From: Candidatus Acidiferrales bacterium
GTDB taxonomy: Bacteria > Acidobacteriota > Terriglobia > Acidiferrales > UBA7541
DNA length: 64,000 nucleotides
Assembly (NCBI GenBank): GCA_035945715.1
Contig: DASYZX010000020.1
Coordinates: 129,622 to 193,621 of the forward strand
Reading direction: 5' to 3'
The translations under genes and the position numbers were made by a program. Shown here in pieces: positions 9,559 through 23,989 of the stretch. The notes under the pieces are model-generated. The model had not been told where the DNA came from, did no database searches, and worked only from the letters and a program-made list of their open reading frames with translations. The first letter of the stretch is position 1; each line of letters starts with the position of its first letter.

Positions 9559-9585
9559 AGGGCCAAACGCAAATTGCAGCGGCGG

Positions 9586-11187
9586 CTACTGCTCGACAGG
9601 TTTTCCCGGGACGGCGCGATTGCCGCCTTCGCCTTTGGCCTTGTACAGCGCTTCGTCGGCTACGCGCAGCAGTGCTGCCGCGGACGCTCCGTGCGCGGGA
9701 AATGCACTCACGCCGAGCGACAGAGCGCCGGGATTCAGAAACATGTCGCCGTATTGAATGACGATGCGGCGGAACTCACGCAGGAGCAATTCAGCGCGGC
9801 GCTCGGCTGTTTCAAGCGAAGTGTCGAGGAGAATGAGCACGAACTCGTCTCCGCCGTAGCGGCAGGCGATGTCCCCGGCGCGGACCACTCTCGCCACGAG
9901 TTCGCCGAATGAACGCAAAAGGGTGTCACCGGCCGCGTGGCCGTACGTATCGTTGAAGGCCTTGAAGTGATCCAGATCGCACATGATGATTCCCAGGTTC
10001 CGGCCGTCGCGGCTGGCGCGGTGGATTTCGCGCGGGAGCGTCTCGTCGAGATAGCGACGATTGAAGAGGCCGCTGACAGGATCGCGAATCGATTGCGCGC
10101 GGAGGCTTTCGCGCAGCCGCAGGTTGGCGAGAGCCAAACCGATGTGGCCAGCGAGAGTTTCGACAAGTTGCTGGCGCGCCGACAGCAACCTTTGCTGCAC
10201 ATCGGCTGGCTGGCTGAGTTCGTAGGGCCCGCCCTGCACGGTGAGCACCCCAAGCGTTTCGCCGGACGCTACTAAAGGCGCGCAAATCGAATTCACGGAG
10301 TTGAGGCGCGACAGATGCGGGCACAAGAGCGGCGTGGCAGGATCCGCGACGCGATGGACGTGGCCGCTGCGAAGCGCCCAGCATTCTTCGGGCGAAAAAA
10401 CCACCTCGGGCAATGGCGGCTGGCCCCACTTCACGGTAGCTTCGAGCAAGTTCACGGAGGTGTTCCATTCGAAGAGCGCGCCGGTTCCTGCGGGGAAAAG
10501 CTTTGGCAAAGACTGACTGAGGACAAGATGTGCCTCGCCCGAAGTCAGGCAGGTCTGCAGCAGCGTGCTGAGCTGCTGGACGAAATTCATTTCACGGTTG
10601 CGCTGCTCGAGGTTGCGGACCGTTTCGGAAAGCTGCCGGTTTATGCTGCGGAGCGCTTCTTCTTCGTGCTCCGGAGATTCAGTCTCACGAGCAATCGCGG
10701 CGACACCGGCGACGTAACCGGAAGGATGGCGAACCAGCGAAAGCGCAATGGCAACGGAGACTCCGATGCCTTCCCTGCGCACGCACGTTATACGGCGCAG
10801 TGGCACTCGCGAGCCGGCCGCAACGTTGCCGGCGTCACGAAGAAAGGCATTCCACTCTTCTGGAGGACAGAGCAGTGAAAAGGAGCGGTTGATCGCCTCC
10901 GCGGCAGCATAACCATAGATCCGCTCAGCGCCACTGTTCCAACTGAGAATGATGCCGTCGAGAGTCAAGCAGACAATGGCATCTTCAGCCGACTCGACGA
11001 TGGCCGCAGCCAATTCAAAGGGCCGACCCGAGGGACGAATCATGTCCGTCCCGTTTTCCACGCGCGTGGACTCGTATTGAGGGCTGTGTTCCATTCGATT
11101 TCGTGCCAGCCGGCTCGCCGCTGGCTCAAATGCTTGCGGCTCCAGGACCGATGGAGCGTTCTGCGCGGATTTGTCTAGAGAAGCCAT
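9586..11187 (-). CDS. PAS-GAF-GGDEF diguanylate cyclase
   Basis: PAS region ('DAIVCLTLDGIILSWNSGAERIYGY'), a central GAF-like region, and C-terminal 'RYGGDEFVLIL' with an RxxD I-site ('RAGD') five residues upstream. Start is ambiguous: 11187 (chosen) or 11271. Confidence 0.9.
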   Translation of the reverse strand: MASLDKSAQNAPSVLEPQAFEPAASRLARNRMEHSPQYESTRVENGTDMIRPSGRPFELAAAIVESAEDAIVCLTLDGIILSWNSGAERIYGYAAAEAINRSFSLLCPPEEWNAFLRDAGNVAAGSRVPLRRITCVRREGIGVSVAIALSLVRHPSGYVAGVAAIARETESPEHEEEALRSINRQLSETVRNLEQRNREMNFVQQLSTLLQTCLTSGEAHLVLSQSLPKLFPAGTGALFEWNTSVNLLEATVKWGQPPLPEVVFSPEECWALRSGHVHRVADPATPLLCPHLSRLNSVNSICAPLVASGETLGVLTVQGGPYELSQPADVQQRLLSARQQLVETLAGHIGLALANLRLRESLRAQSIRDPVSGLFNRRYLDETLPREIHRASRDGRNLGIIMCDLDHFKAFNDTYGHAAGDTLLRSFGELVARVVRAGDIACRYGGDEFVLILLDTSLETAERRAELLLREFRRIVIQYGDMFLNPGALSLGVSAFPAHGASAAALLRVADEALYKAKGEGGNRAVPGKPVEQ

Positions 11188-11237
11188 CGCTGCGTTTGCC
11201 CTTCGGATCGGGCTTCCAGAGATGCGGAAGCACCCGT

Positions 11238-11741
11238 TCAGCAGCCTTCTGGCATCGTTGTTGCGGCGCAACGCCGAATGCGCGAGAACAACTCTGAAAC
11301 CAGCACGTCTTTCGTCAGAAAATCGTCTGCGCCGTACCGGGCCGCGGCTTCGCGGAGCGCGTCTTCCTCCACAAGGGAGAGGAAAATCACGGTCGTCGAG
11401 GCCATTTCGGCTTTGACGCGACGCGCTCCCTCGAGACCGGCCATACCGGAAAGCGCAATGTCGACGAGAATGACGTCAGGCTTGAGCTGCCGGGACAACA
11501 GCAAAAACTCGCTTCCATTGAGCACCTCGCCGACGACTTCGAAATCCGCTTCAGAGTCGAAACGGCGGCGCATGAATTTTCTGAATTGCCGGCTCTCGTC
11601 GGCGATCAGGATTCTCAGGGGGTACGGCCTCTTGCCCTTGGTCCTGTGGGCAACCGTGCCATCGACCGACGGTTTCTCGTATTCGAAAAACAACGACTCG
11701 CTCCCTGTGCCGAGGGTACGAGAGCGGGACGAATGGAACAA
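11238..11741 (-). CDS. Stand-alone receiver (REC) response regulator
   Basis: 'LRILIADESRQFRKFM...KPDVILVDIALSGMAGLE' CheY-like receiver with no output domain. The N-terminal ~40 aa are uncertain. Confidence 0.8.
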   Translation of the reverse strand: MFHSSRSRTLGTGSESLFFEYEKPSVDGTVAHRTKGKRPYPLRILIADESRQFRKFMRRRFDSEADFEVVGEVLNGSEFLLLSRQLKPDVILVDIALSGMAGLEGARRVKAEMASTTVIFLSLVEEDALREAAARYGADDFLTKDVLVSELFSRIRRCAATTMPEGC

Positions 11742-12140
11742 TACAGCGAGTCACGGACGAGTAAACGGGCGTTAACCTGAGCCGTTCATGGAACTGCCGG
11801 ACCCGGCGAAGGCAGGCGATCTCAGTACTTGCGTTGCCTAGTACTAGATGGTTTCACTGCTCGTCAATAGAGGAACTACCGGATTGCTCAAGACTGCGCC
11901 GTCTGTAGGATAAGGGGCAAAATGATGGGAGTTTCGCATTGATAACGAAGGAGAAGAGTCTGGGAGGACTCCTTGCCACCACCGCAGGGATCCTTGGAAC
12001 TCACTCCCTTACCAGTTCCCCACGGATTTCTCCTTTGCGAAATTCCCATCTCCTACTACAGGCATACTAAGGGCATCTGCAAGGGCATACATCATCCGAT
12101 TCGAGTGACCACACGGGGCTTCCGGGAGGGATGTTGTCTT

Positions 12141-13040
12141 CTAGCTCCGATAGGAAGCAGGTCCCAAGTCCTGGAGAGCATGGGCGACGCCGCGCAGGCG
12201 GAGCTTCAGGTTGGCAGAGAGGTTGCGTATCTCCTTGCGGTGACTTTCCAGGCTCGTCGATGAGACCTTCTCCAGGCGGGCGGCAAATCGATCCAGAGCG
12301 GAGTGGCACTCCGCATCCAAGAGCACGCGGTTCTGTTCGGCCCAGTCAGACATCAAAGAACTGAGCGCTTCGGTCGCTTGCTGGCTGAGGGCCTCGGTGA
12401 AATGCCGGACCGCTTCCTCTGAAAGCAAATCCAGCCGCGTCGATGTTTGTTCACAAAACGAGTCGAGACGGCGCTCCAAGCGGCTCGAAAACTCCTCGCA
12501 TTTCTTCGCAAAAAGATCCTCAAGCAGCATGGCTACTTGCTGGCCGGTTTTTGGTTCGGTGACGGGATTAACCTTCACGCGCACGGGTGTTTCCGTACCG
12601 GAAGAAAGCGCCGGCTCCGCGGTTTTTCTGGCGGACTCGCGCGCGCCCACATCGAAAATCGGCAGGCGCTGCACAGGAGGAGCTATGGCTGCGGCAGAAA
12701 ACCGATTCGGCCGCATGAAAGTGATCGGGTTGGCGGAGATCTGTTGGGGCAAGCGACCCTCGGCGACTGTCGCTGCAGGTGTAGTTGCCGGCCGAAGCGC
12801 CTGCGCGGGAAACTTTGCCGGAAGGCTTGCCTCCGATTGCCGGCGAGTGCTGGTAGCGCCGTAGCGGCCATCCCAGGAGGCCGCCAGAAACCCTCCGCCA
12901 AGCCGGGCCAGGGCACGCAGGCCGCGCCCGGCGCCCTCGAATCCAGTCAAGACGGCCTGACGACAACGGTGCCCCGCGACTGTTAAATGATCACGCTGCG
13001 CCTGCATCCAGGTCTTGCGATGGTCCTCTTGATTCGACAT
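12141..13040 (-). CDS. Hypothetical protein with Ala/Pro-rich linker and helical C-terminal half
   Basis: ORF in the same orientation as the upstream sigma-54 activator gene and overlapping its end. Start set at ATG 13040 (alternative 13007). The C-terminal ~130 aa are heptad-like ('LLEDLFAKKCEEFSSRLERRLDSF...'). No family recognised. Confidence 0.55.
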   Translation of the reverse strand: MSNQEDHRKTWMQAQRDHLTVAGHRCRQAVLTGFEGAGRGLRALARLGGGFLAASWDGRYGATSTRRQSEASLPAKFPAQALRPATTPAATVAEGRLPQQISANPITFMRPNRFSAAAIAPPVQRLPIFDVGARESARKTAEPALSSGTETPVRVKVNPVTEPKTGQQVAMLLEDLFAKKCEEFSSRLERRLDSFCEQTSTRLDLLSEEAVRHFTEALSQQATEALSSLMSDWAEQNRVLLDAECHSALDRFAARLEKVSSTSLESHRKEIRNLSANLKLRLRGVAHALQDLGPASYRS

Positions 13041-14157
13041 AGCCGTCACCTCGCCGCGAAGGGTCATTAATCCCGTATCGACGCATCTTGTTCCACAAGG
13101 TCTTCGTACTAATGTGGAGCGCACGGGCGGTTTCCGTGCGATTCCAGCGGCTCTTTCTGAGGCACTCCTCAATCATCCGCTTTTCGGCCTCGGCGCGAAT
13201 CGAAGCAATGCGCGGCTTAAGGCCTCCGGATTTCTCCTCTTTGTTATTCGCGTCCGGCGCTGTATCACCATTGCCTGAACGCAGTTCGGCAATCAAGGTC
13301 GCATCATCCTGGAGGATCAGATGACGGCAGATAAAACTCTTAAGCTCCCGGACATTGCCGGGCCAAGAATGCTGCATGCAAGCGTCAAAGGTGCGCTTCG
13401 ACAGCGGGCGGGGAAGGCAGCCCAAGTCGGCGGAAAGCAGGCGGATGAAGTAGTCGATAAACAAAGGAATGTCTTGGCGCCGTTCCCGCAGGGCGGGAAC
13501 GCGGAGCGTGATGGTGTTCAGCCGGTAGTACAGGTCGGTGCGAAACACTTTCTGCTCAATGGCCCGCTCGATATCGATGTTCGTGGCAGCAATTACGCGT
13601 ACGTCGACGGTCAGCAACCGGCGGCCACCGAGCCGGGAAAATTGCTTGTCTTGGAGAACATGCAGGAGTTTCGCCTGGAGACCCGGTGGCATTTCTCCGA
13701 TTTCATCGAGAAGGATGGTGCCGTGGTCACAAATCTCGAACAGGCCGGGTTTCGACCTTACGGCGCCTGTAAAGGCGCCCGGCTCGTAGCCGAAAAGTTC
13801 ACTCTCGAGCAACTCGGAAGGCAGGGCCGCGCAATTGATTTTGAGAAACGTGCGCCCGGCTCGGGGCGACAGCGCATGAAGTTTCCTTGCCGCGAACTCT
13901 TTTCCCACACCGGATTCCCCCAGAAGGAGGACCGGCACATCAACGCCGGCCACGCGGTCGATCTGTTGCTGAAGCTCGACCATCGCGGGGCTGCAGGAAG
14001 CGGATAATTCCTCCAACTCAGGAACGCCATCACCGGATGCACGGTTGCGGGCCGGGGCAGGATTCCGCCGGACCTCCGGAGTCGGAATCGATCGGTCAAA
14101 GTCAATCACACGTGCTGAAGCGTTCATCCAGGACTCCCGAGTTCCGGCCCGCATCAA
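12991..14157 (-). CDS. Sigma-54-dependent transcriptional activator (bEBP) lacking an N-terminal sensory or receiver domain
   Basis: AAA+ Walker A 'GESGVGKE'. Sigma-54 contact loop 'GAFTGA' ('YEPGAFTGAV'). C-terminal Fis-type HTH 'TARALHISTKTLWNKMRRYGI'. Only ~60 non-domain residues precede the AAA+ core. Confidence 0.9.
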   Translation of the reverse strand: MMRAGTRESWMNASARVIDFDRSIPTPEVRRNPAPARNRASGDGVPELEELSASCSPAMVELQQQIDRVAGVDVPVLLLGESGVGKEFAARKLHALSPRAGRTFLKINCAALPSELLESELFGYEPGAFTGAVRSKPGLFEICDHGTILLDEIGEMPPGLQAKLLHVLQDKQFSRLGGRRLLTVDVRVIAATNIDIERAIEQKVFRTDLYYRLNTITLRVPALRERRQDIPLFIDYFIRLLSADLGCLPRPLSKRTFDACMQHSWPGNVRELKSFICRHLILQDDATLIAELRSGNGDTAPDANNKEEKSGGLKPRIASIRAEAEKRMIEECLRKSRWNRTETARALHISTKTLWNKMRRYGINDPSRRGDGYVESRGPSQDLDAGAA

Positions 14158-14344
14158 CCGCCAGAATTCCAGGCGGGAGGAATCTGAAAGGCTCTAAACC
14201 CCTTTGTCAGCAAAAAGTCGCTGATGCCGTTCAATATCGTACTGAGAGCGGAGGAGTTTCACCATTAGGTGCATCGCTGAATTCCACGTGGGAAAAATCC
14301 CTAAGGAGATGTAGGGCAACCTCTCCGTCTCCTACAGCGCCCAA

Positions 14345-14977
14345 CTACGCCTGCACCAGCCCGCGCCGAATGGCATAACGGACGAGCCCCGCGGTCTCGT
14401 GAATGTCGAGCTTTTCCATAATGCGGGTACGATGCGTCTCGGCGGTCTTGACGCTGATGTTAAGGACTCCTGCTACTTCCTTAGTGGTTTTGCCCTCGGC
14501 GATGAGCTGCAGAACTTGCCGTTCCCGCGGACTGAGCGGTTCGGATGAAAGTTCGGTCTTGTTCTGATAGGCCTGGACCACGGCGCGCGACACTTCGGGG
14601 CTGAGGTACACACCGCCGCGGGAGGCTTCGCGGATCGCCTGAACCAGATTCTCCGCGGCGTGCGTCTTGACCACGTATCCTTTTGCGCCGACACGAAGGG
14701 CATCGAGCAAATACGGGTCCTCGTCGTGCACCGTCAGGAAAATGGTTTTCGTTTGCGGCGAAACCTTCTGAATTTCCTTGGCGGCATCAATACCATTGAG
14801 GACCGCCATGCTAACGTCCAGCACGGCGACGTCGGGATGCAGCGACTCGGCGATTTTGACGGCTTCCTGTCCATTGGAGGCTTCGCCAACAATCTTGAGT
14901 CCTTCCTTTTCCAGCAATACTTTCAACGACTGGCGAACGATTTGGTGGTCATCAGCGAGTAACACTTGTATCGGCAT
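14345..14977 (-). CDS. NarL/LuxR-family response regulator (REC + HTH)
   Basis: 'IQVLLADDHQIVRQ', 'DVAVLDVSMAVLNG', and LuxR HTH 'LSPRERQVLQLIAEGKTTKEVAGVLNISVKTAETHR'. Confidence 0.95.
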   Translation of the reverse strand: MPIQVLLADDHQIVRQSLKVLLEKEGLKIVGEASNGQEAVKIAESLHPDVAVLDVSMAVLNGIDAAKEIQKVSPQTKTIFLTVHDEDPYLLDALRVGAKGYVVKTHAAENLVQAIREASRGGVYLSPEVSRAVVQAYQNKTELSSEPLSPRERQVLQLIAEGKTTKEVAGVLNISVKTAETHRTRIMEKLDIHETAGLVRYAIRRGLVQA

Positions 14978-14980
14978 GGC

Positions 14981-15889
14981 TTAAGCCTCCACGGGGATCA
15001 GAATCTTAAGTTCCGTCCCCTGTTGCGGTGCAGAATCGATCTGCAGTGTTCCTCCGAGAACATTCAAACGCTCTCGCATTCCCAAAAGGCCCAATGCATT
15101 CCTACTTCCCTTTGCGATGGCGGGATCGAAGCCGACCCCGTCATCCCGAATGGAACAGTGAAACTCGCCGGGGCTCCTCCAGAGCCGGATATTGACGCGA
15201 GAAGCTTTGGCGTGCCTGGCCACGTTGTTCAACGCTTCCTGTGCCACGCGGTACATTGCAGCTTCGACCGACTTCGTCAGGCGCGGGCTAAGCTTTCCAT
15301 CAACGCTCACGGGCAATGCAAAACGCTTTGAAAACTTCTCCGCAAGAGTTTGCAGGGCCGGCAAAAGCCCATAGTCATCCAACACGGTCGGGCGAAGTTC
15401 GTGCGAGAAATTCCGCAACTGCTGCTCGACCTGTTCGAGCAGCGACTCCACTTCTCCGAGGTCGAGCTGCACGGCCGGAGAAACGCTGCGCGCCATTTGT
15501 CGCAACTGAATGTGAACCGCGGCCAGTAGCTGGCCGGATTCATCATGGAGCGCCCGGGCAATCCTGCGGGTCTCGCTTTCTAGAGATTCATTCAAGCGGC
15601 GCAAAGTGTCATTGGCCTCGCCGAAGGCACGATGTGTCATTTCGAACGGAGACATCGACTCAACCAGAAACTCGCCGGCAGGCCGCAGCACTTCATCCTG
15701 CTGATCCCTGTGGCCATTCGACAGAATCGCTTCCAACGCGTGCTGATGCACACCGATCATGTCCAGAATTCCGCGGCCTTCGCTCAGCGCGCGGCGCCCA
15801 AGCTCATAGGCCTGCTTCAACGAAACTTCGCCGCCCTGGCGGAGATAGGTTCTTAGCGCGCGTTCATACTCACCGTGCAGCCCATCCAC
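14981..15889 (-). CDS. Histidine kinase: RsbU_N-like N-terminal domain + HisKA_3 + HATPase_c
   Basis: Start set at GTG 15889 with a GGAGG SD, overlapping the rsbX stop. N-terminus 'YERALRTYLRQGGEVSLKQAYELGRRALSEGRGILDMIGVHQHAL' resembles the RsbU N-terminal (RsbT-binding) domain. H-box 'RIARALHDESGQ'. ATPase motifs 'NNVARHA', 'DDGVGF', 'GLLGMRER'. Confidence 0.85.
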   Translation of the reverse strand: MDGLHGEYERALRTYLRQGGEVSLKQAYELGRRALSEGRGILDMIGVHQHALEAILSNGHRDQQDEVLRPAGEFLVESMSPFEMTHRAFGEANDTLRRLNESLESETRRIARALHDESGQLLAAVHIQLRQMARSVSPAVQLDLGEVESLLEQVEQQLRNFSHELRPTVLDDYGLLPALQTLAEKFSKRFALPVSVDGKLSPRLTKSVEAAMYRVAQEALNNVARHAKASRVNIRLWRSPGEFHCSIRDDGVGFDPAIAKGSRNALGLLGMRERLNVLGGTLQIDSAPQQGTELKILIPVEA

Positions 15890-16496
15890 TGGGCACCTCC
15901 TTTTGCGGCCCGGTGTACCGCGCAACGAGCACCAATGCGTCGTCGGTTCCGCGCGCGAATCGCGCGAGAACAGCGTCGGCGGTGGCTTGCGCGGAATCCG
16001 CTTTGAGCCTGTCGGCAAAACCCAGGCGGACTCCATCGGTCACAAAAATCAGCGTGTCGCCTCTCGACACAGGAACAATGGAAGCAACCAATGAGGGCAA
16101 CTGGTCGCCGACCACTCCGCCGCGAAGCGGGAGCACCTCCTGGCTCGTCGTTCCGTAAGAATCGCGATGAAGAAGCACGCCTTCCACGTTTCCGACACCG
16201 AGCCAGGTGACGGTGGCGTCACTCGCGTTAAAAGAAGCCAAGCTCATCACAACGCCGCGCGTCGGTTTCAGTTTTTCGTGGCACATCCGCACCAGGGTCA
16301 TGACCGACTCCTGCGCATTGTGTTCGAGAACTTCGGTGGCGATTCGCGCCGCCGCCGCAGCTTCCGTCCCGTGACCGAGGCCATCAACCACAGCAACCAA
16401 CGCTCCTCCGTCAAACTGTACGATGGCGTGGCGGTCGCCTATTTCCGTCTGTCCAGGCAAAGCCTGTGCCGCGACACCGCAATCGACGAATGACAT
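15870..16496 (-). CDS. rsbX: PP2C-type (SpoIIE-fold) phosphatase, RsbX-like
   Basis: ~208 aa. 'GDRHAIVQFDGGALVAVVDGLGHG' and 'TLIFVTDGV' PP2C metal-site motifs. TAATG overlap with rsbT. Confidence 0.85.
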   Translation of the reverse strand: MSFVDCGVAAQALPGQTEIGDRHAIVQFDGGALVAVVDGLGHGTEAAAAARIATEVLEHNAQESVMTLVRMCHEKLKPTRGVVMSLASFNASDATVTWLGVGNVEGVLLHRDSYGTTSQEVLPLRGGVVGDQLPSLVASIVPVSRGDTLIFVTDGVRLGFADRLKADSAQATADAVLARFARGTDDALVLVARYTGPQKEVPSGWAAR

Positions 16497-16948
16497 TACC
16501 TTTTCCATTTGCGCGCGGTCACCGTGGTGCCGTGTCCGACCCTCGATTCAATTTCGAATTCGTCCATCAGCCGCCGAACGCCGGGCAGGCCAAGTCCCAA
16601 GCTCCGCGATGTGGAAAACCCTCCCTGCAGGGCGCGGCGAATGTCTGGAATGCCGGGGCCTTGATCGCAAGCGCGAACCATGACGCCGCGCTGCTCGCCG
16701 CGTTCGAGCACGCGCAGCACGATTTCACCCTGCTTTGCGTAAAGCACGATGTTCCTTGCCAACTCGGAGATTGCGGTGGCTATCAGAGTCAACTCACTTG
16801 AAGAAAAGCCCAGTGTTGCAGCGAGCACGCGCCCTTTTTGGCGCGCCGAAACAATGTCGGTATCTTCGTTGATTCGCACGGCAATTTCTTCGAGCACACG
16901 ATCGCGCGAATGTTCGAAGGAACGCTCTGCGGACGCCGCAGCCGCCAT
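16496..16948 (-). CDS. rsbT: RsbT-like serine/threonine switch kinase (HATPase_c_2)
   Basis: 'ELARNIVLYAKQGEIVL...ACDQGPGIPD...GLGLPGVRRLMDEFEI', a Bergerat-fold anti-sigma/RsbT-type kinase. Start set at ATG 16948, 10 nt after the rsbS stop. Confidence 0.9.
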   Translation of the reverse strand: MAAAASAERSFEHSRDRVLEEIAVRINEDTDIVSARQKGRVLAATLGFSSSELTLIATAISELARNIVLYAKQGEIVLRVLERGEQRGVMVRACDQGPGIPDIRRALQGGFSTSRSLGLGLPGVRRLMDEFEIESRVGHGTTVTARKWKR

Positions 16949-16958
16949 AGGATTCCGC

Positions 16959-17345
16959 TCAGCGTCCACGGGAGTTCGCTTCCTTGGCGGGGCTCGCGTC
17001 CTTTTTGCTGAGAAACGCGATCCCTTCCTCAAGGTCAAGTGCGGTAGGCACTCCCTCCAGTTTCAATCCAAGCTGCACCATGGTGAACGCAACGTCGGGC
17101 TGTATGCCGACGATGACCGTCTCGGCGCCACGCAACCGAATCATGAAAGTGATGTCGCGGAGGGTGCGGGTGGCGAACGAATCCATCACATCAAGGGCGG
17201 TAACGTCGACAATCACGCCGCGCGAACGCAGACGGCCGACCTGTTCGACAAGCGCGTCGCGCAACTGCACAAGATCCGCGTCGGAAAGCGCCGACTGAAT
17301 CGATGCGATGAGATACGGGCCTTGTTTGAGAATGGGGACTTCCAC
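16959..17345 (-). CDS. rsbS: RsbS-like single-STAS stressosome scaffold protein
   Basis: 128 aa STAS domain 'VPILKQGPYLIASIQSALSD...GVIVDVTALDVMDSFATRTL...VIVGIQPDVAFTMVQLG'. The 'DSF' serine typical of the RsbS phospho-site is conserved. Confidence 0.9.
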   Translation of the reverse strand: MEVPILKQGPYLIASIQSALSDADLVQLRDALVEQVGRLRSRGVIVDVTALDVMDSFATRTLRDITFMIRLRGAETVIVGIQPDVAFTMVQLGLKLEGVPTALDLEEGIAFLSKKDASPAKEANSRGR

Positions 17346-17354
17346 AATTTGTCC

Positions 17355-18290
17355 TTAGGCGTGATCCGCTGATTCCGTGAAAGGCACGACTTTGTAGCCC
17401 AGTAGGCGCTCGGCTTCTTCGATTCCGCCTTGCAGGTCGCCGACCGTGTTCATCTTGCCCAAATCGACGCCAATGGTTACCAGAGTCTGCGCGATTTCCG
17501 GGGACAATCCGGTAATAATGACGGTGGCGCCCAGCAAACGGGTGGCCTCGACGGTTTGCACCAGGTTATTCGCGACGTTTGCGTCCATTACAGGCACGCC
17601 GGTGATGTCAATGACGACCACTTTTGCACGGTTCGTGCGTATGCCGCGCAGCAATTGCTCGGTCAACTGGCGGGCGCGCTGCGGATCGATTACGCCGATG
17701 ATGGGAAGAATCAGAAGGCGCTCGCGGACCTGCAGCACCGGAGTGGACAGCACGCGAATCGCTTCCTGCTGTTCGCGGATGACGCGCTCGCGCTCTTGAA
17801 CGAAGCCGACCGCCACGGTGTTCGCGATGCGGTTCGCGGCGGGCTCGTAAGCGTCCAGGATGCGGTTGAGGAGAGCGAAGTCATTCTGATACTTGGCGAA
17901 CAAAGAGCGCGCGAGCACGTCGCGCAACAGAAGCACGATGCCGACAACTTCATGGGTCTCGACGCCTCGAGGAATGATGCGTTCGGAAAGGTTGCGCGCA
18001 TATGCTTGCAGCGCCTCGAAGGTTCCGGTTTCCAGCGCTTCCACATAGTTGTCGTACACGGATGTAGCTTCGGCGAAAATCTCTTCCTTGGTCATTGCCG
18101 TCAGCAACTTGGCTTCGGTGATGCGGCGGGCCCATTCTTCGCGCAATTGTGTTCGATTCTGCCGGAGGTGTGCGACCAATTGACGCAGCAGCTCGGCCGT
18201 TGGCGCGGTCATCTGATGCGCCGGCCCAAAGGTGGTTCGTATCTCTCGCGTCTCGCGTGTCTCTCGCGTCTCGCGTGTCTCTTGTGCCAT
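17355..18290 (-). CDS. rsbR: RsbR-like stressosome sensor (N-terminal non-haem globin-type domain + C-terminal STAS)
   Basis: C-terminus 'LSTPVLQVRERLLILPIIGVIDPQRARQL...VVVIDITGVPVMDANVANNL...VIITGLSPEIAQTLVTIGVDL' matches the RsbR STAS. The helical N-terminal ~150 aa is RsbR_N-like. Confidence 0.9.
   Translation of the reverse strand: MAQETRETRETRETREIRTTFGPAHQMTAPTAELLRQLVAHLRQNRTQLREEWARRITEAKLLTAMTKEEIFAEATSVYDNYVEALETGTFEALQAYARNLSERIIPRGVETHEVVGIVLLLRDVLARSLFAKYQNDFALLNRILDAYEPAANRIANTVAVGFVQERERVIREQQEAIRVLSTPVLQVRERLLILPIIGVIDPQRARQLTEQLLRGIRTNRAKVVVIDITGVPVMDANVANNLVQTVEATRLLGATVIITGLSPEIAQTLVTIGVDLGKMNTVGDLQGGIEEAERLLGYKVVPFTESADHA
18243..18281 (-). repeat. In-frame tandem repeat at the 5' end of rsbR (18-bp unit x2 plus 3 bp, 9-bp subperiod) encoding (ETR)x4
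   Basis: The + strand reads ctctcgcgtctcgcgtgt twice in perfect succession (18243-18260 and 18261-18278). Translation is MAQ-ETR-ETR-ETR-ETR-EIR. Confidence 0.9.
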
Positions 18291-18465
18291 CCGGTCTCCT
18301 CCTGTTTTTCACACGCCAGTGAACCGAGGCATGTAAGGAAACTCTCTGACCAGCCTGTAAGGCACAAACATTCTTGCAGGCCCGTAAATACTGTGGAATC
18401 GGGGAAGCACCCTGAATTTGCCCAGTATTTTACTTACAGCGTTTACTGTAGAAACTGCATGTAAT

Positions 18466-20181
18466 TCAATTTATGGCGGTTGCGGCTATTTTGGAACCGG
18501 ATCTCGGGCGGAATTCTTTGCCGGCTAGTACGGCTTTTACCGCGGCAATCAGATCGCGGCCTGCCTTGCCTTTCGACAGAAAACCGTGAGCGCCCGCGTG
18601 GAAACTTTCTTGCGCCGTCTGTTCGGAGTCGTGAACGGTGAAGATGAGGATCTTGGTTTCCGGACGAGCGCGGAGAATCTGGCGCACCACGGCGAGTCCG
18701 TTCAACGCTGGCATATTGATGTCGAGAATGACCAGGTCCGGCTTGAGGCTCAGCGCTTTTTCGACGGCCTCAATGCCATCGGTGGCTTCACCGCAGATTC
18801 GGAGACCCGCTTCGCTTTCCAGCATGGAGCGCACTCCGCGACGGAGCATCTCGTGGTCATCAGCCACTAATATGCGATGCGCCGCCGATTTTCGTTCGTC
18901 GGTGAGTCTCTCTCCGGGAGCACCCAGGCTCTCGAGGTCAACCGGCAGGAAAAGCTCCTGAAGGGGCAGGGTGGCGACTACTACGGTGCCCTTGCCGAGC
19001 TGCGAGAGAATCTCCAACTGGCCGGAAAGCTGGCGGATGCGCTGCCTCATGCCCTGAATTCCAACACCCAACGGCGCAATCGCACCGCCCGGTGCTTTGG
19101 CTTTTTCGACCGGCATGCCCTTGCCGGAGTCGCCGATCTCCAGTTTAAACTCATCTTCATCGACGCGAACGCGAACGTATGCCGTGCGGCTACCGGAATA
19201 TCGATGAACGTTGGTGAGACTCTCCTGCACGACGCGAAACAGCGCGACCTCGGCATCGGGCCGAAGACGAGGCAAATTGCGCGCAATATCCACATCGACG
19301 CGAATTCCCGTGCGCTTCTGAAAGCCCTGCGCATACCATTTAACCGCCGCAGGCAATCCCAATTCGTCAAGCAAGGGAGGGTGCAAGAGATAGGACAGTG
19401 TACGGATTTCCTCGCTGATTTGATTCGTGAGGTCCAGACACTGCGCGATGGATTCCCGGGTCTCCTCATTGGCCGTGGGCGAAACGAGGCGCGTCATACG
19501 CGAAAGGGCGATGCACTGCAAGGCGAGTTTCTGGCCGGTTACATCATGGAGATCGCGCGCAATGCGTCGCCGCTCCTCGTCCTGAAGTTCGAGGAGGCGC
19601 GAGGAAAGCTGCCGCAGCGCTTCTTCGTTCGCCTGGAGGGCTTCGTTTGCGTCGGAAAGCTCGGTCAAATCCGTCGCGACAGCGCACACGGTTTGCAGTT
19701 CCGCGCCTTTGACAGGACTCAGTGACAAGCGAATCGACGTCTGTCGAGAACCGTTCAACTGGAGATCAACTTCTCCTTTGACGCTGCCGCGAGTCCCGCT
19801 TTCGAGGAGGGCCTTGAGCCTGGGCGCTTCGGTCGCCGCAACGTGGTCTTGCAATCGAGTGCCGATGAACTTCTCGAGCGGAAGGCCCGCAAGCTGGGCG
19901 AAGCGATTGTTGGCGTAAAGAACCGTGCCGTCGCCGTCGAGGGTGGCCGCGCCTTCATTGATGGTCTCAACAAGAACGCGATAAGGATGTTCCGCGCCCT
20001 GCAAAAGAAAAATGCGCTCGCCCTCGGCCAGCTTTACGACTACCGCGTCGACCTCGCCTCGGCGAATGGCAGTAAATATCTGCTCGAGTTCCGCGATACG
20101 CCGGCGCAACGCGGCGTCTTCGCGTCTTCGCGGAACGGCTCCTCGTTGGGAGCGTGCGGAATGGTTAGTTCGGTTTTTCAT
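18466..20181 (-). CDS. Hybrid sensor histidine kinase: PAS + HisKA_3 + HATPase_c + C-terminal receiver
   Basis: PAS region 'TINEGAATLDGDGTVLYANNRFAQLAGLP'. H-box 'RRIARDLHDVTGQKL'. ATPase motifs 'TNVHRYS', 'DSGKGMP', 'GIQGMRQR'. REC 'RILVADDHEMLRRG...DLVILDINMPALNG'. 17-nt overlap with the upstream kaiB. Confidence 0.92.
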   Translation of the reverse strand: MKNRTNHSARSQRGAVPRRREDAALRRRIAELEQIFTAIRRGEVDAVVVKLAEGERIFLLQGAEHPYRVLVETINEGAATLDGDGTVLYANNRFAQLAGLPLEKFIGTRLQDHVAATEAPRLKALLESGTRGSVKGEVDLQLNGSRQTSIRLSLSPVKGAELQTVCAVATDLTELSDANEALQANEEALRQLSSRLLELQDEERRRIARDLHDVTGQKLALQCIALSRMTRLVSPTANEETRESIAQCLDLTNQISEEIRTLSYLLHPPLLDELGLPAAVKWYAQGFQKRTGIRVDVDIARNLPRLRPDAEVALFRVVQESLTNVHRYSGSRTAYVRVRVDEDEFKLEIGDSGKGMPVEKAKAPGGAIAPLGVGIQGMRQRIRQLSGQLEILSQLGKGTVVVATLPLQELFLPVDLESLGAPGERLTDERKSAAHRILVADDHEMLRRGVRSMLESEAGLRICGEATDGIEAVEKALSLKPDLVILDINMPALNGLAVVRQILRARPETKILIFTVHDSEQTAQESFHAGAHGFLSKGKAGRDLIAAVKAVLAGKEFRPRSGSKIAATAIN

Positions 20182-20509
20182 CGCGGATCCCGAGCCCGGC
20201 TAACAGCTGCGCTTGGTCTGAAAGATTGCCGACCAGTTTTCGGACTGGAACTGGACGAGCTCTCACAAGCGTGGGCGTAGCTATGATTTGCGCCTCTCTG
20301 GCCAATTCGGGTTGTTGGCAGATGTCGATCACTTCGATGTCGTACTGCCCCTCCAAGTGGCTCTGACAAGCGCGCACCAGATTTCGCACCGAAGCCGATG
20401 ACAGGCTGCTCTGGCCAGTTATGTACAGCCTGAGAACGTAGGCCTTTGTGCGTACCGCTTTCGGCTTGCCGGCACTTGTCCTGCGCCGAGTCTTGTTATG
20501 TCTAGTCAC
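20165..20509 (-). CDS. kaiB: KaiB paralogue 2, with a basic N-terminal extension
   Basis: '[21 protein letters not shown]...[43 protein letters not shown]' aligns with the KaiB thioredoxin-like fold. Start set at GTG 20509, overlapping the kaiB1 stop by 8 nt. The ATG of the track ORF lies inside kaiB1. Confidence 0.85.
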
Positions 20510-20840
20510 TGGCCGCCTCGGCTTTTCCGCCCACTCTCTGGATGTCTGACAGATCCAGGCCCACCAACACACGGTCTGTATTTGAAAGATCGCCAATGAT
20601 CTTTCGCACGGGCACCGGCAATTTTTTGACAAGCGTGGGAATCGCCAGTATTTGGTCTCCCTGCGCGAGTTGCGGATTCTTGACCAGGTCGATCACTTCG
20701 ATCCGATATCTACCCTTGAGATGCTCGTCGCAGATTCTCTTGAGGTTGGACATTGCTGCCAAAGACTTCGGTGTCTGGCCGGCAACGTAGAGCCGGAGCT
20801 TGATGACTGTGAGCGATCCCTTGGTGCCCTTCTTGCTCAT
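20502..20840 (-). CDS. kaiB: KaiB paralogue 1
   Basis: '[85 protein letters not shown]' is close to canonical KaiB. ATGA overlap with kaiC. Confidence 0.95.
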
Positions 20841-22585
20841 CGTGAACCTCCCGCGGCCTTCGCTTTCCGTCCATTACTCGTGTTCACCCCACGGCTGTGC
20901 GACATCGCTTCTTCATCCGTTACTAAAACGCGCTCACGCTGCTGCGCCTGTTCGATCAGGCGCTTCATTTGATGCTCTTTCGCCACAAACTCCGATTGCA
21001 GCGCAGCAATTTGCACCTGCAAAGCCTGGCGCTGCCGGTCCAGTTCGACCTTTTGCCTTTCGATCTCTTGCTCGCGCGATAACATCTCAGACTTTTCTTT
21101 CGCTTGTTGAGCCAGACGGGAAGAACCCGTGAGCACACCCCCGACGCCTACGTACGCAGGTATCAGCCGGATTCCGTTCTTGCCCATGACGAACTCGCGA
21201 AGCTGGTTCGAGTGAGCCATTCCGCGGGACTTCACCAGGTACACAGCCCGATTGCGCTCACCGTTCAGCTCGATATCGCGAAGCAGGACCCAGGTGTCAA
21301 TCAAGGACGAGATCGCGAGATTGGTGTGCTCCAGCGATTCTCGCGCGGCAGTCAGCGAGGTGAAGAGAGCCGTGACCTTTCGCATTTTCAAGAAATCCAG
21401 CAAACGCGTCAGCATCGCCTGCACGTCTTTCGCTGTGCTGCCGCTGATCAGATTTGTCACGGGATCGATCACCACGGCCTTCGGCTGGAACTGCTCGATG
21501 AGCTTGTGGATTCGCAACAAATGCATTTCCATGCCGTACTGTGAAGGCCGCCAGGCCCCATGAATCAGCAGCCCCTTTTTGATCCAGGGATTGAGTTCAA
21601 ATCCGACGGATCGCATGTTCCGCGAAAGCTGCCCAAGGGACTCCTCGAATGCAATGTAGAGACATTTCTCGCCGCGACGGCAAGTAGCGTCAGCGAAGCT
21701 GGTGGCCAGCGTTGTTTTTCCAGTGCCGGCGGTTCCGCTGATCAAAACGCTTGAGCCTCGGAAATAGCCCTCGCCTTCGAGCATGTCGTCCAAGTCGCCG
21801 ATCCCCGAGCTGACCCGCTCAGTGGATGCCGCGTGCTGCAATTCGAGCGAGGTGATAGGCAATACCGACACACCCTGCTCGTCAATTAGGAAGGGGTATT
21901 CATCGGAGCCGTGGCTCGAGCCGCGGTATTTCACGATGCGCATGCGACGCGTCGAAGTCTGTTCGCTGATGCGATGATCCAGCAAAATAACGCAATCGGA
22001 AACGTACTCCTCGAGTCCGTGACGCGTGAGCGTCCCTTCCCCTCTTTCGGCCGTCACCATCGTCGTCATGCCGCGGTCCTTCAGCCACCGGAACAGCCGG
22101 CGGATCTCCGCGCGCAGAACTCCAATGTTTTTGAAGCCTGAAAAAATGGCTTCCACCGTATCCAACAGAACGCGCTTGGCACCCACAGTCTCGATAGCGT
22201 TTTGCAGGCGGACGAATAGCCCCTCGAGGTCATAGTCACCCGCCTCTTCAATTTCGCTTGGCTCAATGTAGACGTATTCGAAGAAAAGCTTCTTCCGCTC
22301 GACGAGCCCGTTCAGGTCGAACCCGAGCGAAGCTACGTTGCGAGCCATCTCCTGCGGCGTCTCTTCAAAAGCGAGGAGGACGCCTGGTTCATTGAACTCG
22401 GTGGCGCCACGAACCAAAAATTCAATGCCGAGCATCGTCTTGCCGCAGCCCGGGCCGCCGCAAACGATGGTTGTCCGGCCCTTCGGCAGCCCACCGCCGC
22501 TGATTTCATCGAGTCCCTTGATTCCCGTGCAAGACTTCTCCAGTGCGGAAAGAAAATGACTGCCATTATTTGCACGCTGGGGCAT
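20837..22585 (-). CDS. kaiC: KaiC double RecA-domain ATPase/autokinase with a ~90-aa C-terminal coiled-coil extension
   Basis: Two Walker A motifs ('GGPGCGKT', 'GTAGTGKT'). '[14 protein letters not shown]' N-terminus. CII phospho-site region '[16 protein letters not shown]'. Heptad-rich tail '[61 protein letters not shown]'. Confidence 0.95.
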
Positions 22586-22683
22586 ACCACTCCTTTTTGG
22601 AGGCCAGGAGGTGTGAAGGGCGGGGAAGCCGTGTCGCCTGGCGCGAAAGGAGGGATATTAACTGAAAACAACAAGATGGGCAA

Positions 22684-22715
22684 GCCAACCAATCGCCAAC
22701 CAATCGCCAACCATC
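22684..22715. repeat. Tandem 11-bp repeat (gccaaccaatc x2 plus a partial copy) about 100-130 bp upstream of the kaiC start
   Basis: The + strand reads gccaaccaatc gccaaccaatc gccaaccatc, in the 216-bp gap between the small basic-protein gene and kaiC. Confidence 0.85.
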
Positions 22716-22801
22716 GCGCCGCGCGCCGCGGCGGCCCGAGGGTTTGCTTGCCCCCTGAACAAATGTGAGCGTGCTGTGGCTGCGAGGGCGCCGCGAGTGA
22801 G

Positions 22802-22990
22802 CTAAGACGTCTTCTTCCGTGGAACTTTCGCGCCTTTCTTTCGCGCCTCCGAGAGTCCAATGGCAATCGCTTGCTTGCGGCTCTTCACTTTGCCACCTTT
22901 GCCTCCTTTTCCCGACTTCAAAGTGCCGCGTTTTTTCCGGTGCATCGCGCTCTTCACGCTCTTCCCCGCGGCCTTTCCATACTTGGGCAT
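22802..22990 (-). CDS. Small (62 aa) lysine/arginine-rich protein, possibly DUF6496-type
   Basis: 'MPKYGKAAGKSVKSAMHRKKRGTLKSGKGGKGGKVKSRKQAIAIGLSEARKKGAKVP'. The conserved-looking 'RKQAIAIGLSEARKKG' core matches a widespread small-protein family as I recall it. The family name is uncertain. Confidence 0.65.
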   Translation of the reverse strand: MPKYGKAAGKSVKSAMHRKKRGTLKSGKGGKGGKVKSRKQAIAIGLSEARKKGAKVPRKKTS

Positions 22991-23920: not shown

Positions 23921-23989
23921 GAGTGCTCGTCAAGGTAAGATGTGGCTTCTCCGGATCAAGAGGCTTACCGATAGACTGATGGAAACTCT

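What the first reader, a model, noticed from the sequence alone, without database searches (positions are those of the whole stretch)
14345..22585. KaiC-KaiB-KaiB-hybrid kinase module directly abutting a complete stressosome, both apparently feeding HisKA_3 kinases with a single NarL-type output
Seen in the sequence: ten consecutive minus-strand genes with almost no spacing.
- kaiC/kaiB1: ATGA overlap.
- kaiB1/kaiB2: 8-nt overlap.
- kaiB2/hybrid kinase: 17-nt overlap.
- 175-bp gap, then rsbR.
- rsbR/rsbS: 9-bp gap.
- rsbS/rsbT: 10-bp gap.
- rsbT/rsbX: TAATG overlap.
- rsbX/kinase: 20-nt overlap, with a GTG start and GGAGG SD.
- kinase/NarL regulator: 3-bp gap.

Established knowledge: KaiBC is a post-translational timer. 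It is also linked to stress resistance in non-photosynthetic bacteria such as Legionella. RsbR/S/T form the stressosome.

Inference: both kinases in the block carry HisKA_3 (NarX/DegS-type) dimerisation domains. That class pairs with NarL/LuxR regulators, and only one DNA-binding NarL regulator is nearby. An hourglass or timer input and an environmental-stress input may therefore converge on one transcriptional output. I am not aware of a described physical or genetic Kai-stressosome linkage.
Basis: partly seen in the sequence, partly recalled or inferred. Interest (0 to 1): 0.85.

Follow-up and report, generated by a model that had tools for sequence, protein, structure and literature searches.

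The report
Kai timer beside a stressosome operon
Two well-known bacterial signalling gene sets, a KaiBC "hourglass" timer with its kinase and a stressosome with its own kinase and regulator, sit side by side in one group of soil Acidobacteria. Related genomes keep either set without the other, so this looks like two independent modules that became neighbours rather than one new integrated circuit.

Summary
Ten tightly packed minus-strand genes (14345-22585) encode kaiC, kaiB, kaiB and a PAS-HisKA_3-REC hybrid kinase. After a 175-bp gap come rsbR, rsbS, rsbT, rsbX, an RsbU_N-HisKA_3 kinase and a NarL-type regulator.

The proposed convergence on one NarL output is not supported.
- Each half is a widespread, self-contained cassette.
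- Only 1 of 80 KaiC loci from other genomes has a stressosome within 10 kb.
- None of 10 distant stressosome loci with enough upstream sequence, and none of 4 closer ones, has Kai genes.

The adjacency is conserved only in the window's own Acidiferrales clade (KaiC at least 77% identical).
- Sister lineages carry the same stressosome locus, with the same flanks, but no Kai.
- Another lineage keeps an intact Kai cassette beside a decayed narL remnant.
- Each cassette has its own conserved promoter-like region.
- NarL's receiver helix alpha-1 is unchanged between Kai+ and Kai- lineages.

Most likely these are two autonomous operons. Read-through transcription or kinase cross-talk remains possible but is untested. 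No paper in the searched library links Kai and stressosomes. A second adjacency, equally shallow, exists in Burkholderiales.

The parts
22802..22990 (-). DUF6496 small basic protein (62 aa). It is the conserved upstream neighbour of the locus.
   Evidence: Pfam PF20106, 106.9 bits. It lies upstream of kaiC in Kai+ relatives. In Kai-less L171/L172 it lies directly upstream of rsbR.
22655..22683 (-). Promoter-like region of the Kai cassette: -35 TTGCCC (22683-22678), 17-nt spacer, -10 TAATAT (22660-22655). A conserved leader of about 75 nt follows.
   Evidence: Read from the sequence. Conserved in Kai+ relatives and in the Kai-only loci L087-L089 (alignments A4/A5). The strict sigma-70 scan did not pick it up, so it is inferred from conservation.
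20837..22585 (-). kaiC, 582 aa, of the KaiA-independent type with a C-terminal extension of roughly 50-80 aa.
   Evidence: Two PF06745 domains. NF006799 scores 716 bits against a cutoff of 408. Full-length alignment, residues 15-566, to Rhodobacter sphaeroides KaiC 8dba at 645 bits. This includes the Ser-Ser site (ISSLIDTW vs LSSLMDGW) and the tail.
20502..20840 (-). kaiB1, 112 aa.
   Evidence: PF07689 94.1 bits. NF006798 scores 111.7 against a cutoff of 110. ATGA overlap with kaiC.
20165..20509 (-). kaiB2, 114 aa from a GTG start, with a basic N-terminal extension.
   Evidence: PF07689 81.8 bits. NF006798 scores 75.7, below its cutoff of 110. Two tandem kaiB genes are present in 46 of 80 Kai loci.
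18466..20181 (-). Hybrid histidine kinase (PAS-HisKA_3-HATPase_c-REC). It is the last gene of the Kai cassette.
   Evidence: Pfam. The receiver shows the DD, D, T and K positions in the translated sequence, read by eye. Orthologous kinases follow kaiB in 69 of 80 loci.
18291..18465 (-). 175-bp spacer holding the stressosome operon's own promoter/operator-like region. It contains the inverted repeat CTACA-N8-TGTAG (18434-18451, one mismatch) followed by TAAAAT (18432-18427), then a conserved leader.
   Evidence: Alignment A3 shows this region is homologous in Kai+ loci and in Kai-less L171/L172. The palindrome is unique in the window at up to 1 mismatch, although 22 of 100 shuffles also gave at least one such match. 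At 2 mismatches there is still none near kaiC. No terminator-like site lies in the gap on the coding strand.
17355..18290 (-). rsbR, 311 aa: an N-terminal RsbR-type sensory domain plus a STAS domain. The 5' end carries an (ETR)n tandem repeat.
   Evidence: STAS 57 bits; RsbRD_N 23.7 bits, just under the 24.3 cutoff. Residues 40-302 align to solved RsbR chains at 124 bits. The tandem repeat is at 18238-18282.
16959..17345 (-). rsbS, 128 aa, a single STAS domain.
   Evidence: STAS 48.4 bits. 94 bits to RsbS 6qcm. The DSF serine aligns with the position that is Ala in the variant chain 9o4r; that this is the phosphorylated RsbS serine is my own knowledge.
16496..16948 (-). rsbT serine kinase, 150 aa (157 aa if it starts at the GTG at 16969).
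   Evidence: HATPase_c_2 45.5 bits. Nearest solved relatives are anti-sigma F kinases.
15870..16496 (-). rsbX-like PP2C feedback phosphatase.
   Evidence: SpoIIE 41 bits and PP2C_2 25 bits. Its position directly after rsbT matches the conserved rsbRSTX module (PMC9237108).
14981..15889 (-). Soluble histidine kinase with RsbU_N-HisKA_3-HATPase_c. It is the presumed target of RsbT.
   Evidence: RsbU_N 45.6 bits against a cutoff of 25.5, HisKA_3 36.6 bits, HATPase_c 52.7 bits. All but one of the 120 listed homologues carry the same four domains (P0220 lacks RsbU_N and HisKA_3). In the loci examined with upstream sequence the kinase directly follows rsbX, except L103, where rsbRSTX follows narL.
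14345..14977 (-). NarL/LuxR-type response regulator, the cognate output of the RsbU_N kinase. A terminator-like hairpin follows at 14299-14316.
   Evidence: Response_reg 103.5 bits and GerE 71.5 bits. Terminator-like site. Amino-acid identity is 99.5-100% across Kai+ relatives although third-codon-position identity is only 51-62%.
9586..14157 (-). Conserved downstream neighbours: a sigma-54 activator without a sensory domain (12991-14157), a hypothetical protein (12141-13172), a REC-only protein (11238-11741) and a PAS-GAF-GGDEF protein (9586-11271).
   Evidence: Pfam. The same genes follow narL in Kai+ relatives. L172-L174 also carry them, in part; L171 lacks the sigma-54 activator.

Best explanation
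The block is two autonomous signalling operons that became neighbours in one lineage of Acidobacteriota (order Ca. Acidiferrales). It is not one integrated system.

Operon 1 is kaiC-kaiB1-kaiB2-hybrid kinase.
- It is a KaiA-independent KaiBC timer of the Rhodobacter sphaeroides type.
- By homology, KaiC with the long C-terminal tail autophosphorylates constitutively. KaiB binding promotes dephosphorylation. The cycle is driven by the ATP/ADP ratio.
- By inference, the PAS-HisKA_3-REC kinase that travels with the cassette reads out the KaiBC state and phosphorylates its own receiver domain.

Operon 2 is rsbR-rsbS-rsbT-rsbX-kinase-narL, a minimal stressosome with a two-component output.
- By homology, stress causes RsbT to phosphorylate RsbR/RsbS and be released.
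- By inference from the RsbU_N domain, free RsbT docks on the kinase's RsbU_N domain and switches it.
- NarL~P then changes transcription, and RsbX resets the complex.

Shown here:
- Both cassettes are separately conserved units, each with its own conserved promoter-like region.
- Either one can be present at this same locus without the other.

Inferred:
- The biochemical steps above.
- Any coupling is at most facultative, through read-through transcription or weak cross-talk.
For: Kai cassette autonomy:
- In 80 loci from other species (KaiC 56-66% identical, many phyla including archaea), 76 have kaiB right after kaiC, 46 have two kaiB and 69 have a kinase next.
- Only 1 of the 80 has stressosome genes within 10 kb, and only 2 have a NarL-like regulator.
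- The kaiC promoter-like region is conserved in the Kai-only loci L087-L089.

Stressosome cassette autonomy:
- rsbRSTX-kinase-narL occurs intact in about 37 metagenome loci (kinase 31-55% identical). Of the 20 that contain rsbR, 10 have at least 2.5 kb upstream, and none of those has Kai.
- Closer relatives L171-L174 (kinase 59-79% identical) have the cassette without Kai. L171 and L172 also have DUF6496 upstream; L172-L174 also have the sigma-54 activator downstream.

Separability at the same locus:
- L088 has kaiC-kaiB-kaiB-hybrid kinase intact. It is followed by a BNR/Sortilin gene and an 86-aa narL 3' fragment.
- That fragment is 88% identical to NarL residues 125-210. It carries 9 substitutions, 8 of them at positions invariant in every intact orthologue.

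Separate promoters: the 175-bp rsbR upstream region aligns between Kai+ and Kai- loci.

No sign of adaptation: NarL helix alpha-1 is unchanged between Kai+ and Kai- lineages.

Homology:
- KaiC aligns full length to 8dba.
- RsbR and RsbS align to solved stressosome chains.

Literature:
- kaiC-kaiB followed by a histidine kinase is a described gene context (PMC3164672).
- rsbRSTX followed by two-component or RsbU_N-bearing output proteins is described (PMC9237108, PMC10014275).
Against: - The adjacency is retained, in the same order and orientation, in all four relatives examined with KaiC 77-89% identical. Synonymous sites there are near saturation and the upstream flanks have been rearranged. 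That is more persistence than a purely neutral neighbour might be expected to show.
- No terminator-like structure follows the hybrid kinase, so read-through into rsbR is possible.
- Both kinases are HisKA_3 type, and the only GerE regulator in 64 kb is the narL here.
- A second, independent Kai/stressosome adjacency exists in Burkholderiales MAGs (L038, L175).
- Whether Kai was gained once or lost several times cannot be resolved with the data in hand.
Confidence: 0.7

Rival explanations
1. Convergent signalling. The Kai-associated hybrid kinase and the RsbT-controlled RsbU_N kinase both act on the single NarL regulator, as kinase and/or phosphatase. Time or energy state and environmental stress would then be integrated into one transcriptional output. 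This would resemble SasA and CikA acting on RpaA in cyanobacteria.
For: - Both kinases have HisKA_3 dimerisation domains.
- There is only one GerE-type regulator in the window.
- The adjacency is conserved in the clade with KaiC at least 77% identical.
- A second Kai/stressosome adjacency occurs in Burkholderiales.
Against: - The hybrid kinase has its own NarL-family receiver, in which I read the usual conserved positions by eye.
- Orthologous Kai cassettes almost never have a NarL nearby: 2 of 80.
- In L088 the Kai cassette stays intact after loss of the RsbU_N kinase and NarL.
- NarL is 98% identical in Kai-less lineages, with an essentially unchanged helix alpha-1.
- Read by eye from the sequence, about half of the DHp residues just after the phospho-His differ between the two kinases. 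This is inference, not a test.
Confidence: 0.1
2. Transcriptional coupling only. The proteins do not cross-talk. Instead, read-through from the kaiC promoter, or regulation of one promoter by the other module's output, makes stressosome expression depend on the Kai operon or the reverse.
For: - Same strand, a 175-bp gap and no terminator-like site after the hybrid kinase.
- A terminator-like hairpin appears only after narL.
- The spacing of 169-183 bp is conserved in Kai+ relatives.
Against: - The rsbR-proximal region keeps the same promoter/operator-like sequence as in Kai-less loci.
- The operator-like palindrome is found only at rsbR, not near kaiC.
- No expression data are available.
Confidence: 0.15
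3. Assembly or binning artefact: the two halves come from different genomes and were joined by mis-assembly.
For: The window comes from an uncultured soil organism. Taxon labels of related contigs are inconsistent; for example, L088 is labelled Limnocylindrales although it is syntenic with Acidiferrales loci.
Against: - The same junction is found in four other contigs from different samples and sources (JGI, ENA, NCBI, Logan), with diverged sequence.
- GC content is uniform across the block.
Confidence: 0.01

Closest known systems
Rhodobacter sphaeroides KaiBC hourglass timer (KaiC2-type KaiC with a C-terminal coiled coil; PDB 8dba/8db3; Pitsawong et al. 2023, PMC10076222)
   Same: - KaiC aligns over residues 15-566, including the Ser-Ser phosphosite pair and the extended tail, at 645 bits.
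- No kaiA was noted among the called genes of any locus examined.
- kaiB lies directly downstream.
   Different: - There are two tandem kaiB genes here, the second divergent and below the NCBIfam KaiB cutoff.
- The host is an uncultured acidobacterium with no evidence of phototrophy.
- Dodecamer formation and hourglass kinetics are untested.
The 'first kaiC context' of De Luca et al. 2011: kaiC-kaiB followed by a histidine kinase or GGDEF/EAL protein in non-cyanobacteria (PMC3164672)
   Same: The gene order kaiC-kaiB(-kaiB)-PAS kinase matches. I found the same order in 69 of 80 loci across many phyla.
   Different: - The kinase here is the HisKA_3 subtype with a C-terminal NarL-family receiver.
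- Only 26 of 80 loci have a HisKA_3-like kinase in this position.
Minimal stressosome rsbRSTX with a two-component downstream module, for example Vibrio vulnificus VvRsbRSTX-VvD1/D2 (Pane-Farre 2005 as cited in PMC10014275; PMC9237108)
   Same: - rsbR-rsbS-rsbT-rsbX are in the same order.
[quoted passage not shown]
   Different: - The RsbR N-domain here resembles the Bacillus/Listeria RsbR N-domain rather than a haem globin.
- The kinase here carries a clear RsbU_N domain, which VvD1 lacks (PMC9237108).
- The output is a DNA-binding NarL rather than a c-di-GMP enzyme.
Bacillus subtilis RsbT-RsbU activation through the RsbU_N domain
   Same: An RsbU_N domain (45.6 bits) sits on the protein encoded after the stressosome genes. 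This is the expected docking site for released RsbT (mechanism as summarised in PMC9237108).
   Different: RsbU_N is fused to a HisKA_3 histidine kinase rather than a PP2C phosphatase. The downstream step is His-Asp phosphotransfer to NarL, not partner switching to sigma-B.
Cyanobacterial SasA/CikA-RpaA output, where two kinases act on one regulator.
   Same: It is a Kai-linked kinase system in which two sensor kinases could set the phosphorylation level of one response regulator.
   Different: - No KaiB-like (SasA) domain or pseudo-receiver (CikA) domain is present in either kinase here.
- The second kinase is controlled by a stressosome.
- Comparative data show the two kinases are separable.

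Membership tests
KaiC (KaiA-independent type with C-terminal extension) | Two tandem RecA-like KaiC domains, each with a Walker A motif. | tested here: met
   PF06745 matches in 2 stretches, E = 5.8e-108. GPGCGKT and GTAGTGKT are present in the translation. NF006799 scores 716 bits against a cutoff of 408.
KaiC (KaiA-independent type with C-terminal extension) | Ser-Ser phosphosite pair and a C-terminal extension of about 50 aa homologous to the KaiC-RS coiled coil. | tested here: met
   The alignment to 8dba runs to residue 566 and pairs ISSLIDTW with LSSLMDGW. The clade is defined in PMC10076222.
KaiC (KaiA-independent type with C-terminal extension) | Constitutive autokinase activity, dodecamer formation and hourglass behaviour. 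| not testable with these tools
   Requires biochemistry.
Cyanobacterial circadian KaiC (TIGR02655 equivalog) | Score above the curated cutoff. | tested here: not met
   352.4 bits against a cutoff of 546.25.
KaiB | KaiB domain above curated cutoffs. | tested here: met
   Pfam PF07689: KaiB1 94.1 bits and KaiB2 81.8 bits, cutoff 27. NCBIfam NF006798: KaiB1 111.7 against 110 (met); KaiB2 75.7 (not met).
Stressosome rsbRSTX module | RsbR has an N-terminal sensory domain plus a C-terminal STAS domain. RsbS is a single STAS domain with the conserved serine. | tested here: met
   STAS hits. RsbR residues 40-302 align to RsbR chains 9o3z/7b0u at 124 bits. RsbS aligns at 94 bits to 6qcm, with the DSF serine matching the site mutated in 9o4r. 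The RsbRD_N Pfam score of 23.7 is just below its 24.3 cutoff.
Stressosome rsbRSTX module | The RsbT kinase (HATPase_c_2) and the RsbX PP2C phosphatase are encoded directly after rsbS. | tested here: met
   HATPase_c_2 45.5 bits; SpoIIE 41 bits. Gene order and junctions are read from the sequence.
Stressosome rsbRSTX module | Assembly into the large RsbR/RsbS/RsbT complex and stress-dependent release of RsbT. | not testable with these tools
   Requires biochemistry or cryo-EM.
Stressosome with a two-component output through RsbU_N | The protein encoded downstream of rsbX carries RsbU_N. It is a histidine kinase with an adjacent cognate regulator. | tested here: met
   RsbU_N 45.6 bits (cutoff 25.5), HisKA_3 and HATPase_c, with narL 3 bp downstream. 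The arrangement is conserved in the loci found with the kinase (about 37 metagenome loci plus L171-L174).
   - 1 of 80 Kai loci has a stressosome.
- 0 of 4 closer and 0 of 10 distant stressosome loci have Kai.
- The adjacency is conserved only where KaiC is at least 77% identical.
   - L088 has an intact Kai cassette with a decayed narL remnant and no rsb genes.
- L171-L173 have intact stressosome operons at the same locus without Kai.
   A conserved promoter/operator-like sequence lies in the 175-bp gap. There is no terminator-like site after the hybrid kinase. No expression data are available.
   Needs phosphotransfer profiling.

The most novel reading that the evidence does not exclude
In Ca. 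Acidiferrales the KaiBC hourglass and the stressosome form a time- or energy-gated stress circuit. Either the hybrid kinase tunes NarL phosphorylation, or kai-promoter read-through sets stressosome dosage. Recurrent juxtaposition, seen independently in Burkholderiales, would then reflect selection for this coupling. This would be the first link between a Kai timer and a stressosome.
Probability: 0.12. Interest if true: 0.75.

Novelty: new member of a known kind. Interest (0 to 1): 0.3.

Why it matters
If the two modules were coupled, this would be the first case of a Kai timer gating a general stress sensor in a non-photosynthetic soil bacterium. It would give both poorly understood systems a testable output.

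The comparative evidence instead shows modular cassettes that are gained and lost independently at a signalling "hot spot". This is useful in three ways.
- It warns against reading function from adjacency of signalling genes in a single genome.
- It supplies natural Kai-only and stressosome-only variants of the same locus as ready-made controls.
- It documents that the kaiC-kaiB-kaiB-kinase cassette and the rsbRSTX-RsbU_N kinase-narL cassette are each widespread, self-contained units in soil bacteria.

Tried and rejected
- **Structured RNA in the kaiC leader.** A hairpin exists (GCCAGG..CCUGGC; UUAGCGU..ACGCUAA in L087). RNAalifold found no consensus structure. The window fold is no better than shuffles, z = -0.4. 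Not pursued.
- **Rfam scan of 9000-24000.** Only a sub-threshold twister-P5 hit, 21.9 bits against a gathering score of 37.6. Rejected as chance.
- **More copies of the rsbR operator-like palindrome**, as a sign of a shared regulon with kaiC. None lies near kaiC at up to 2 mismatches, and the counts are within chance.
- **Intrinsic terminator between the operons.** None found on the coding strand, so co-transcription is neither supported nor excluded.
- **Polarising gain versus loss of Kai with sigma-54 activator identities.** The distances are star-like: window to L172 68%, to L173 67%, to L087 62%; L173 to L087 67%. Unresolved.
- **Profile HMMs built from 27-40 homologues each of RsbR, RsbS, RsbT and RsbX**, to catch distant stressosomes near the 80 Kai loci. 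Only L038 was found.
- **Conservation of the Burkholderiales adjacency.** It is present in the 88%-identical RsbR relative (L175) but absent in the 80% relative (L176). It is therefore as shallow as the acidobacterial one.
- **Direct-repeat or mobile-element hallmarks at the cassette borders.** I only looked by eye and saw nothing convincing. L087 has a DDE transposase upstream of kaiC.

Full report
**Observation**

The order on the minus strand is:
- kaiC (20837-22585)
- kaiB1 (20502-20840)
- kaiB2 (20165-20509)
- a PAS-HisKA_3-HATPase_c-REC hybrid kinase (18466-20181)
- a 175-bp gap
- rsbR (17355-18290), rsbS (16959-17345), rsbT (16496-16948), rsbX (15870-16496)
- an RsbU_N-HisKA_3-HATPase_c kinase (14981-15889)
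- a REC-GerE regulator (14345-14977)

A terminator-like hairpin follows narL. No other GerE-type regulator is detectable in the 64-kb window. Names attached to close KaiC homologues place the organism in Acidobacteriota, order Ca. Acidiferrales (also written 'Acidoferrales').

**What the parts are**

- KaiC aligns over residues 15-566 to Rhodobacter sphaeroides KaiC (8dba, 645 bits). The alignment includes the Ser-Ser phosphosites and the long C-terminal tail. That tail defines the KaiA-independent, coiled-coil, hourglass-type KaiC (PMC10076222).
- KaiC passes the NCBIfam KaiC model NF006799 but not the cyanobacterial TIGR02655 model.
- RsbR and RsbS align to solved stressosome chains, and the conserved RsbS serine is present.
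- The second kinase has a clear RsbU_N domain. This is the module through which RsbT activates RsbU in Bacillus. It has been noted on diverse output proteins encoded after rsbRSTX (PMC9237108).
- A stressosome with a two-component downstream module is a described type (PMC10014275, PMC9237108).
- kaiC-kaiB followed by a histidine kinase is a described context (PMC3164672).

**Is the adjacency conserved? From the Kai side**

A genome scan with a KaiC alignment returned 80 loci with 10-kb flanks where the contig allows. KaiC identity was 56-66%, and the loci come from Acidobacteriota, Verrucomicrobiota, Bacteroidota, Planctomycetota, Proteobacteria, archaea and others.
- 76 have kaiB after kaiC, 46 have two kaiB, and 69 have a kinase next.
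- Only one locus has stressosome genes: L038, a Burkholderiales MAG. This held with both single-sequence and profile searches.
- Only two loci have a NarL-like regulator.

Closer relatives give a graded picture.
- KaiC at 89, 86, 80 and 77% identity (L081, L083, L084 and L086, with L082 a duplicate of L081): all have the whole block from DUF6496 through kaiC...narL to the sigma-54 activator. Where the contig extends far enough they also have the REC and PAS-GAF-GGDEF genes. Their upstream flanks differ.
- KaiC at 72% (L087/L088): the Kai cassette is intact, but a BNR/Sortilin gene replaces the stressosome.
- KaiC at 70% (L089/L090): the cassette sits in an unrelated context.

**Is the adjacency conserved? 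From the stressosome side**

All but one of the 120 listed homologues of the RsbU_N kinase have the same four-domain architecture.
- Relatives at 79, 76, 72 and 59% identity (L171-L174) carry rsbRSTX-kinase-narL without any Kai genes.
- DUF6496 is directly upstream in L171 and L172.
- The sigma-54 activator is downstream in L172-L174, and the PAS-GAF-GGDEF gene in L171-L173.
- A metagenome scan gave about 37 more loci with the RsbU_N kinase (31-55% identity). In all of them with enough flanking sequence the six-gene cassette is intact.
- 20 of these contain rsbR, and 10 have at least 2.5 kb upstream. None has Kai.

**A natural deletion**

In L088 an 86-aa ORF sits between the Sortilin gene and the sigma-54 activator. 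It is 88% identical to NarL residues 125-210. It carries 9 substitutions, 8 of them at positions invariant in every intact orthologue, including the distant L174.

This is a 5'-truncated, decaying narL. That lineage therefore once had the stressosome operon next to Kai, lost it, and kept all four Kai-cassette genes intact. Conversely, NarL is 98% identical in the Kai-less lineages. Its helix alpha-1, the usual kinase-contact surface, is unchanged apart from K24R in L173/L174.

**Promoters**

- The 175-bp gap aligns between Kai+ loci and the Kai-less L171/L172.
- It contains a conserved inverted repeat, CTACA-N8-TGTAG (window 18434-18451), lying just upstream of and overlapping a TAAAAT/TATAAT box. 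A conserved leader follows.
- The palindrome is unique in the window and absent near kaiC.
- Upstream of kaiC, a TTGCCC-17 nt-TAATAT element and leader are conserved in Kai+ loci and in Kai-only loci.
- So each cassette brings its own promoter-like region.
- No terminator-like site follows the hybrid kinase, so read-through cannot be excluded.

**Evolutionary rates**

Across Kai+ relatives the third-codon-position identity is only about 50-65%. Amino-acid identities are:
- NarL 99.5-100%
- RsbR 96-98%
- RsbS 97-99%
- KaiC 77-89%
- KaiB2 68-76%
- hybrid kinase 74-89%

The stressosome core and NarL are under exceptionally strong constraint. That constraint is the same with or without Kai.

**Second adjacency**

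- L038 and L175 (Burkholderiales) have rsbR-rsbS-rsbT, a HATPase_c_2+SpoIIE protein, and a HATPase_c_2-HisKA-HATPase_c-REC kinase.
- These genes are transcribed divergently from kaiC-kaiB-PAS.
- The relative with an 80%-identical RsbR (L176) has the stressosome cassette without Kai.
- This juxtaposition is therefore also shallow.

**Conclusion**

The most economical reading is two autonomous operons juxtaposed at a locus rich in signalling genes. Their mechanisms are inferred by homology.
- KaiBC hourglass, read out by the hybrid kinase and its own receiver.
- Stressosome, then RsbT, then the RsbU_N kinase, then NarL.

The separability data argue against an obligate link. I put about 0.7 on independent modules, 0.15 on transcriptional coupling only, and 0.1 on shared NarL signalling. 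Literature searches found no described Kai-stressosome link. The juxtaposition itself is therefore unreported, but both components are ordinary members of known kinds.

**Limits**

- Gain versus loss of Kai could not be polarised.
- Taxon labels on some MAG contigs are inconsistent.
- No expression or biochemical data exist.

Noticed in passing
window 14345-14977 (narL), 17355-18290 (rsbR), 16959-17345 (rsbS), compared with L081, L083, L084, L086 and L171-L174: NarL is 99.5-100% identical at the protein level across relatives whose third codon positions are only 51-62% identical and whose KaiC is 77-89% identical. It is still 98% identical in Kai-less lineages. RsbR (91-98%) and RsbS (85-99%) are similarly frozen. 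This is unusually strong constraint for a response regulator.
   Followed up: partly
L088:7923-8183: This is a 5'-truncated narL remnant: 86 aa, 88% identical to NarL residues 125-210, with substitutions at otherwise invariant positions. It lies between a BNR/Sortilin gene and the sigma-54 activator. It records a deletion of the stressosome operon next to an intact Kai cassette.
   Followed up: yes
window 18434-18451: A conserved inverted repeat, CTACA-N8-TGTAG, lies just upstream of (overlapping by 2 nt) the TAAAAT box ahead of rsbR. It is present in Kai+ and Kai- loci and perfect in L086 and L172. It looks like an operator for a dimeric HTH regulator, possibly NarL autoregulation. It is unique in the window.
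   Followed up: partly
L038:1-8091 and L175:4697-14733: Burkholderiales MAGs carry rsbR-rsbS-rsbT, a HATPase_c_2+SpoIIE protein and a HATPase_c_2-HisKA-HATPase_c-REC kinase. These are transcribed divergently from kaiC-kaiB-PAS. The 80%-identical RsbR relative L176 lacks Kai.
   Followed up: yes
window 18238-18282 and 22684-22717: An 18-nt tandem repeat (2.5 copies) at the 5' end of rsbR encodes an (ETR)n run. An 11-nt repeat (3.2 copies, GCCAACCAATC on the plus strand) lies just upstream of the kaiC -35 element. The second is not conserved in relatives.
   Followed up: no
window 22586-22655 (kaiC leader); L087:1848-1925: A conserved leader of about 75 nt has a hairpin whose stem sequence differs in L087 (GCCAGG/CCUGGC versus UUAGCGU/ACGCUAA). 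The fold is not better than shuffles in the window, and RNAalifold finds no consensus structure.
   Followed up: partly
window 9586-14157; L172-L174; L096, L104, L108-L110, L114, L119, L120: The stressosome-kinase-narL cassette is often followed by c-di-GMP genes. In close relatives these are the sigma-54 activator (no sensory domain), a hypothetical protein, a REC-only protein and PAS-GAF-GGDEF. In distant loci a GGDEF protein follows narL, sometimes with a second tandem NarL. These are more consistent neighbours of the stressosome than Kai is.
   Followed up: partly
L001-L080: Two tandem kaiB genes follow the tailed kaiC in 46 of 80 loci across many phyla. In the window the second KaiB falls below the NCBIfam KaiB cutoff. 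The role of a second KaiB in KaiA-less systems is not addressed in the papers I read.
   Followed up: no
window 22802-22990; L171:7155-7355; L172:7140-7325: A DUF6496 gene (about 62 aa, lysine-rich) is the conserved upstream neighbour of this locus whether or not Kai is present. Its function is unknown.
   Followed up: no
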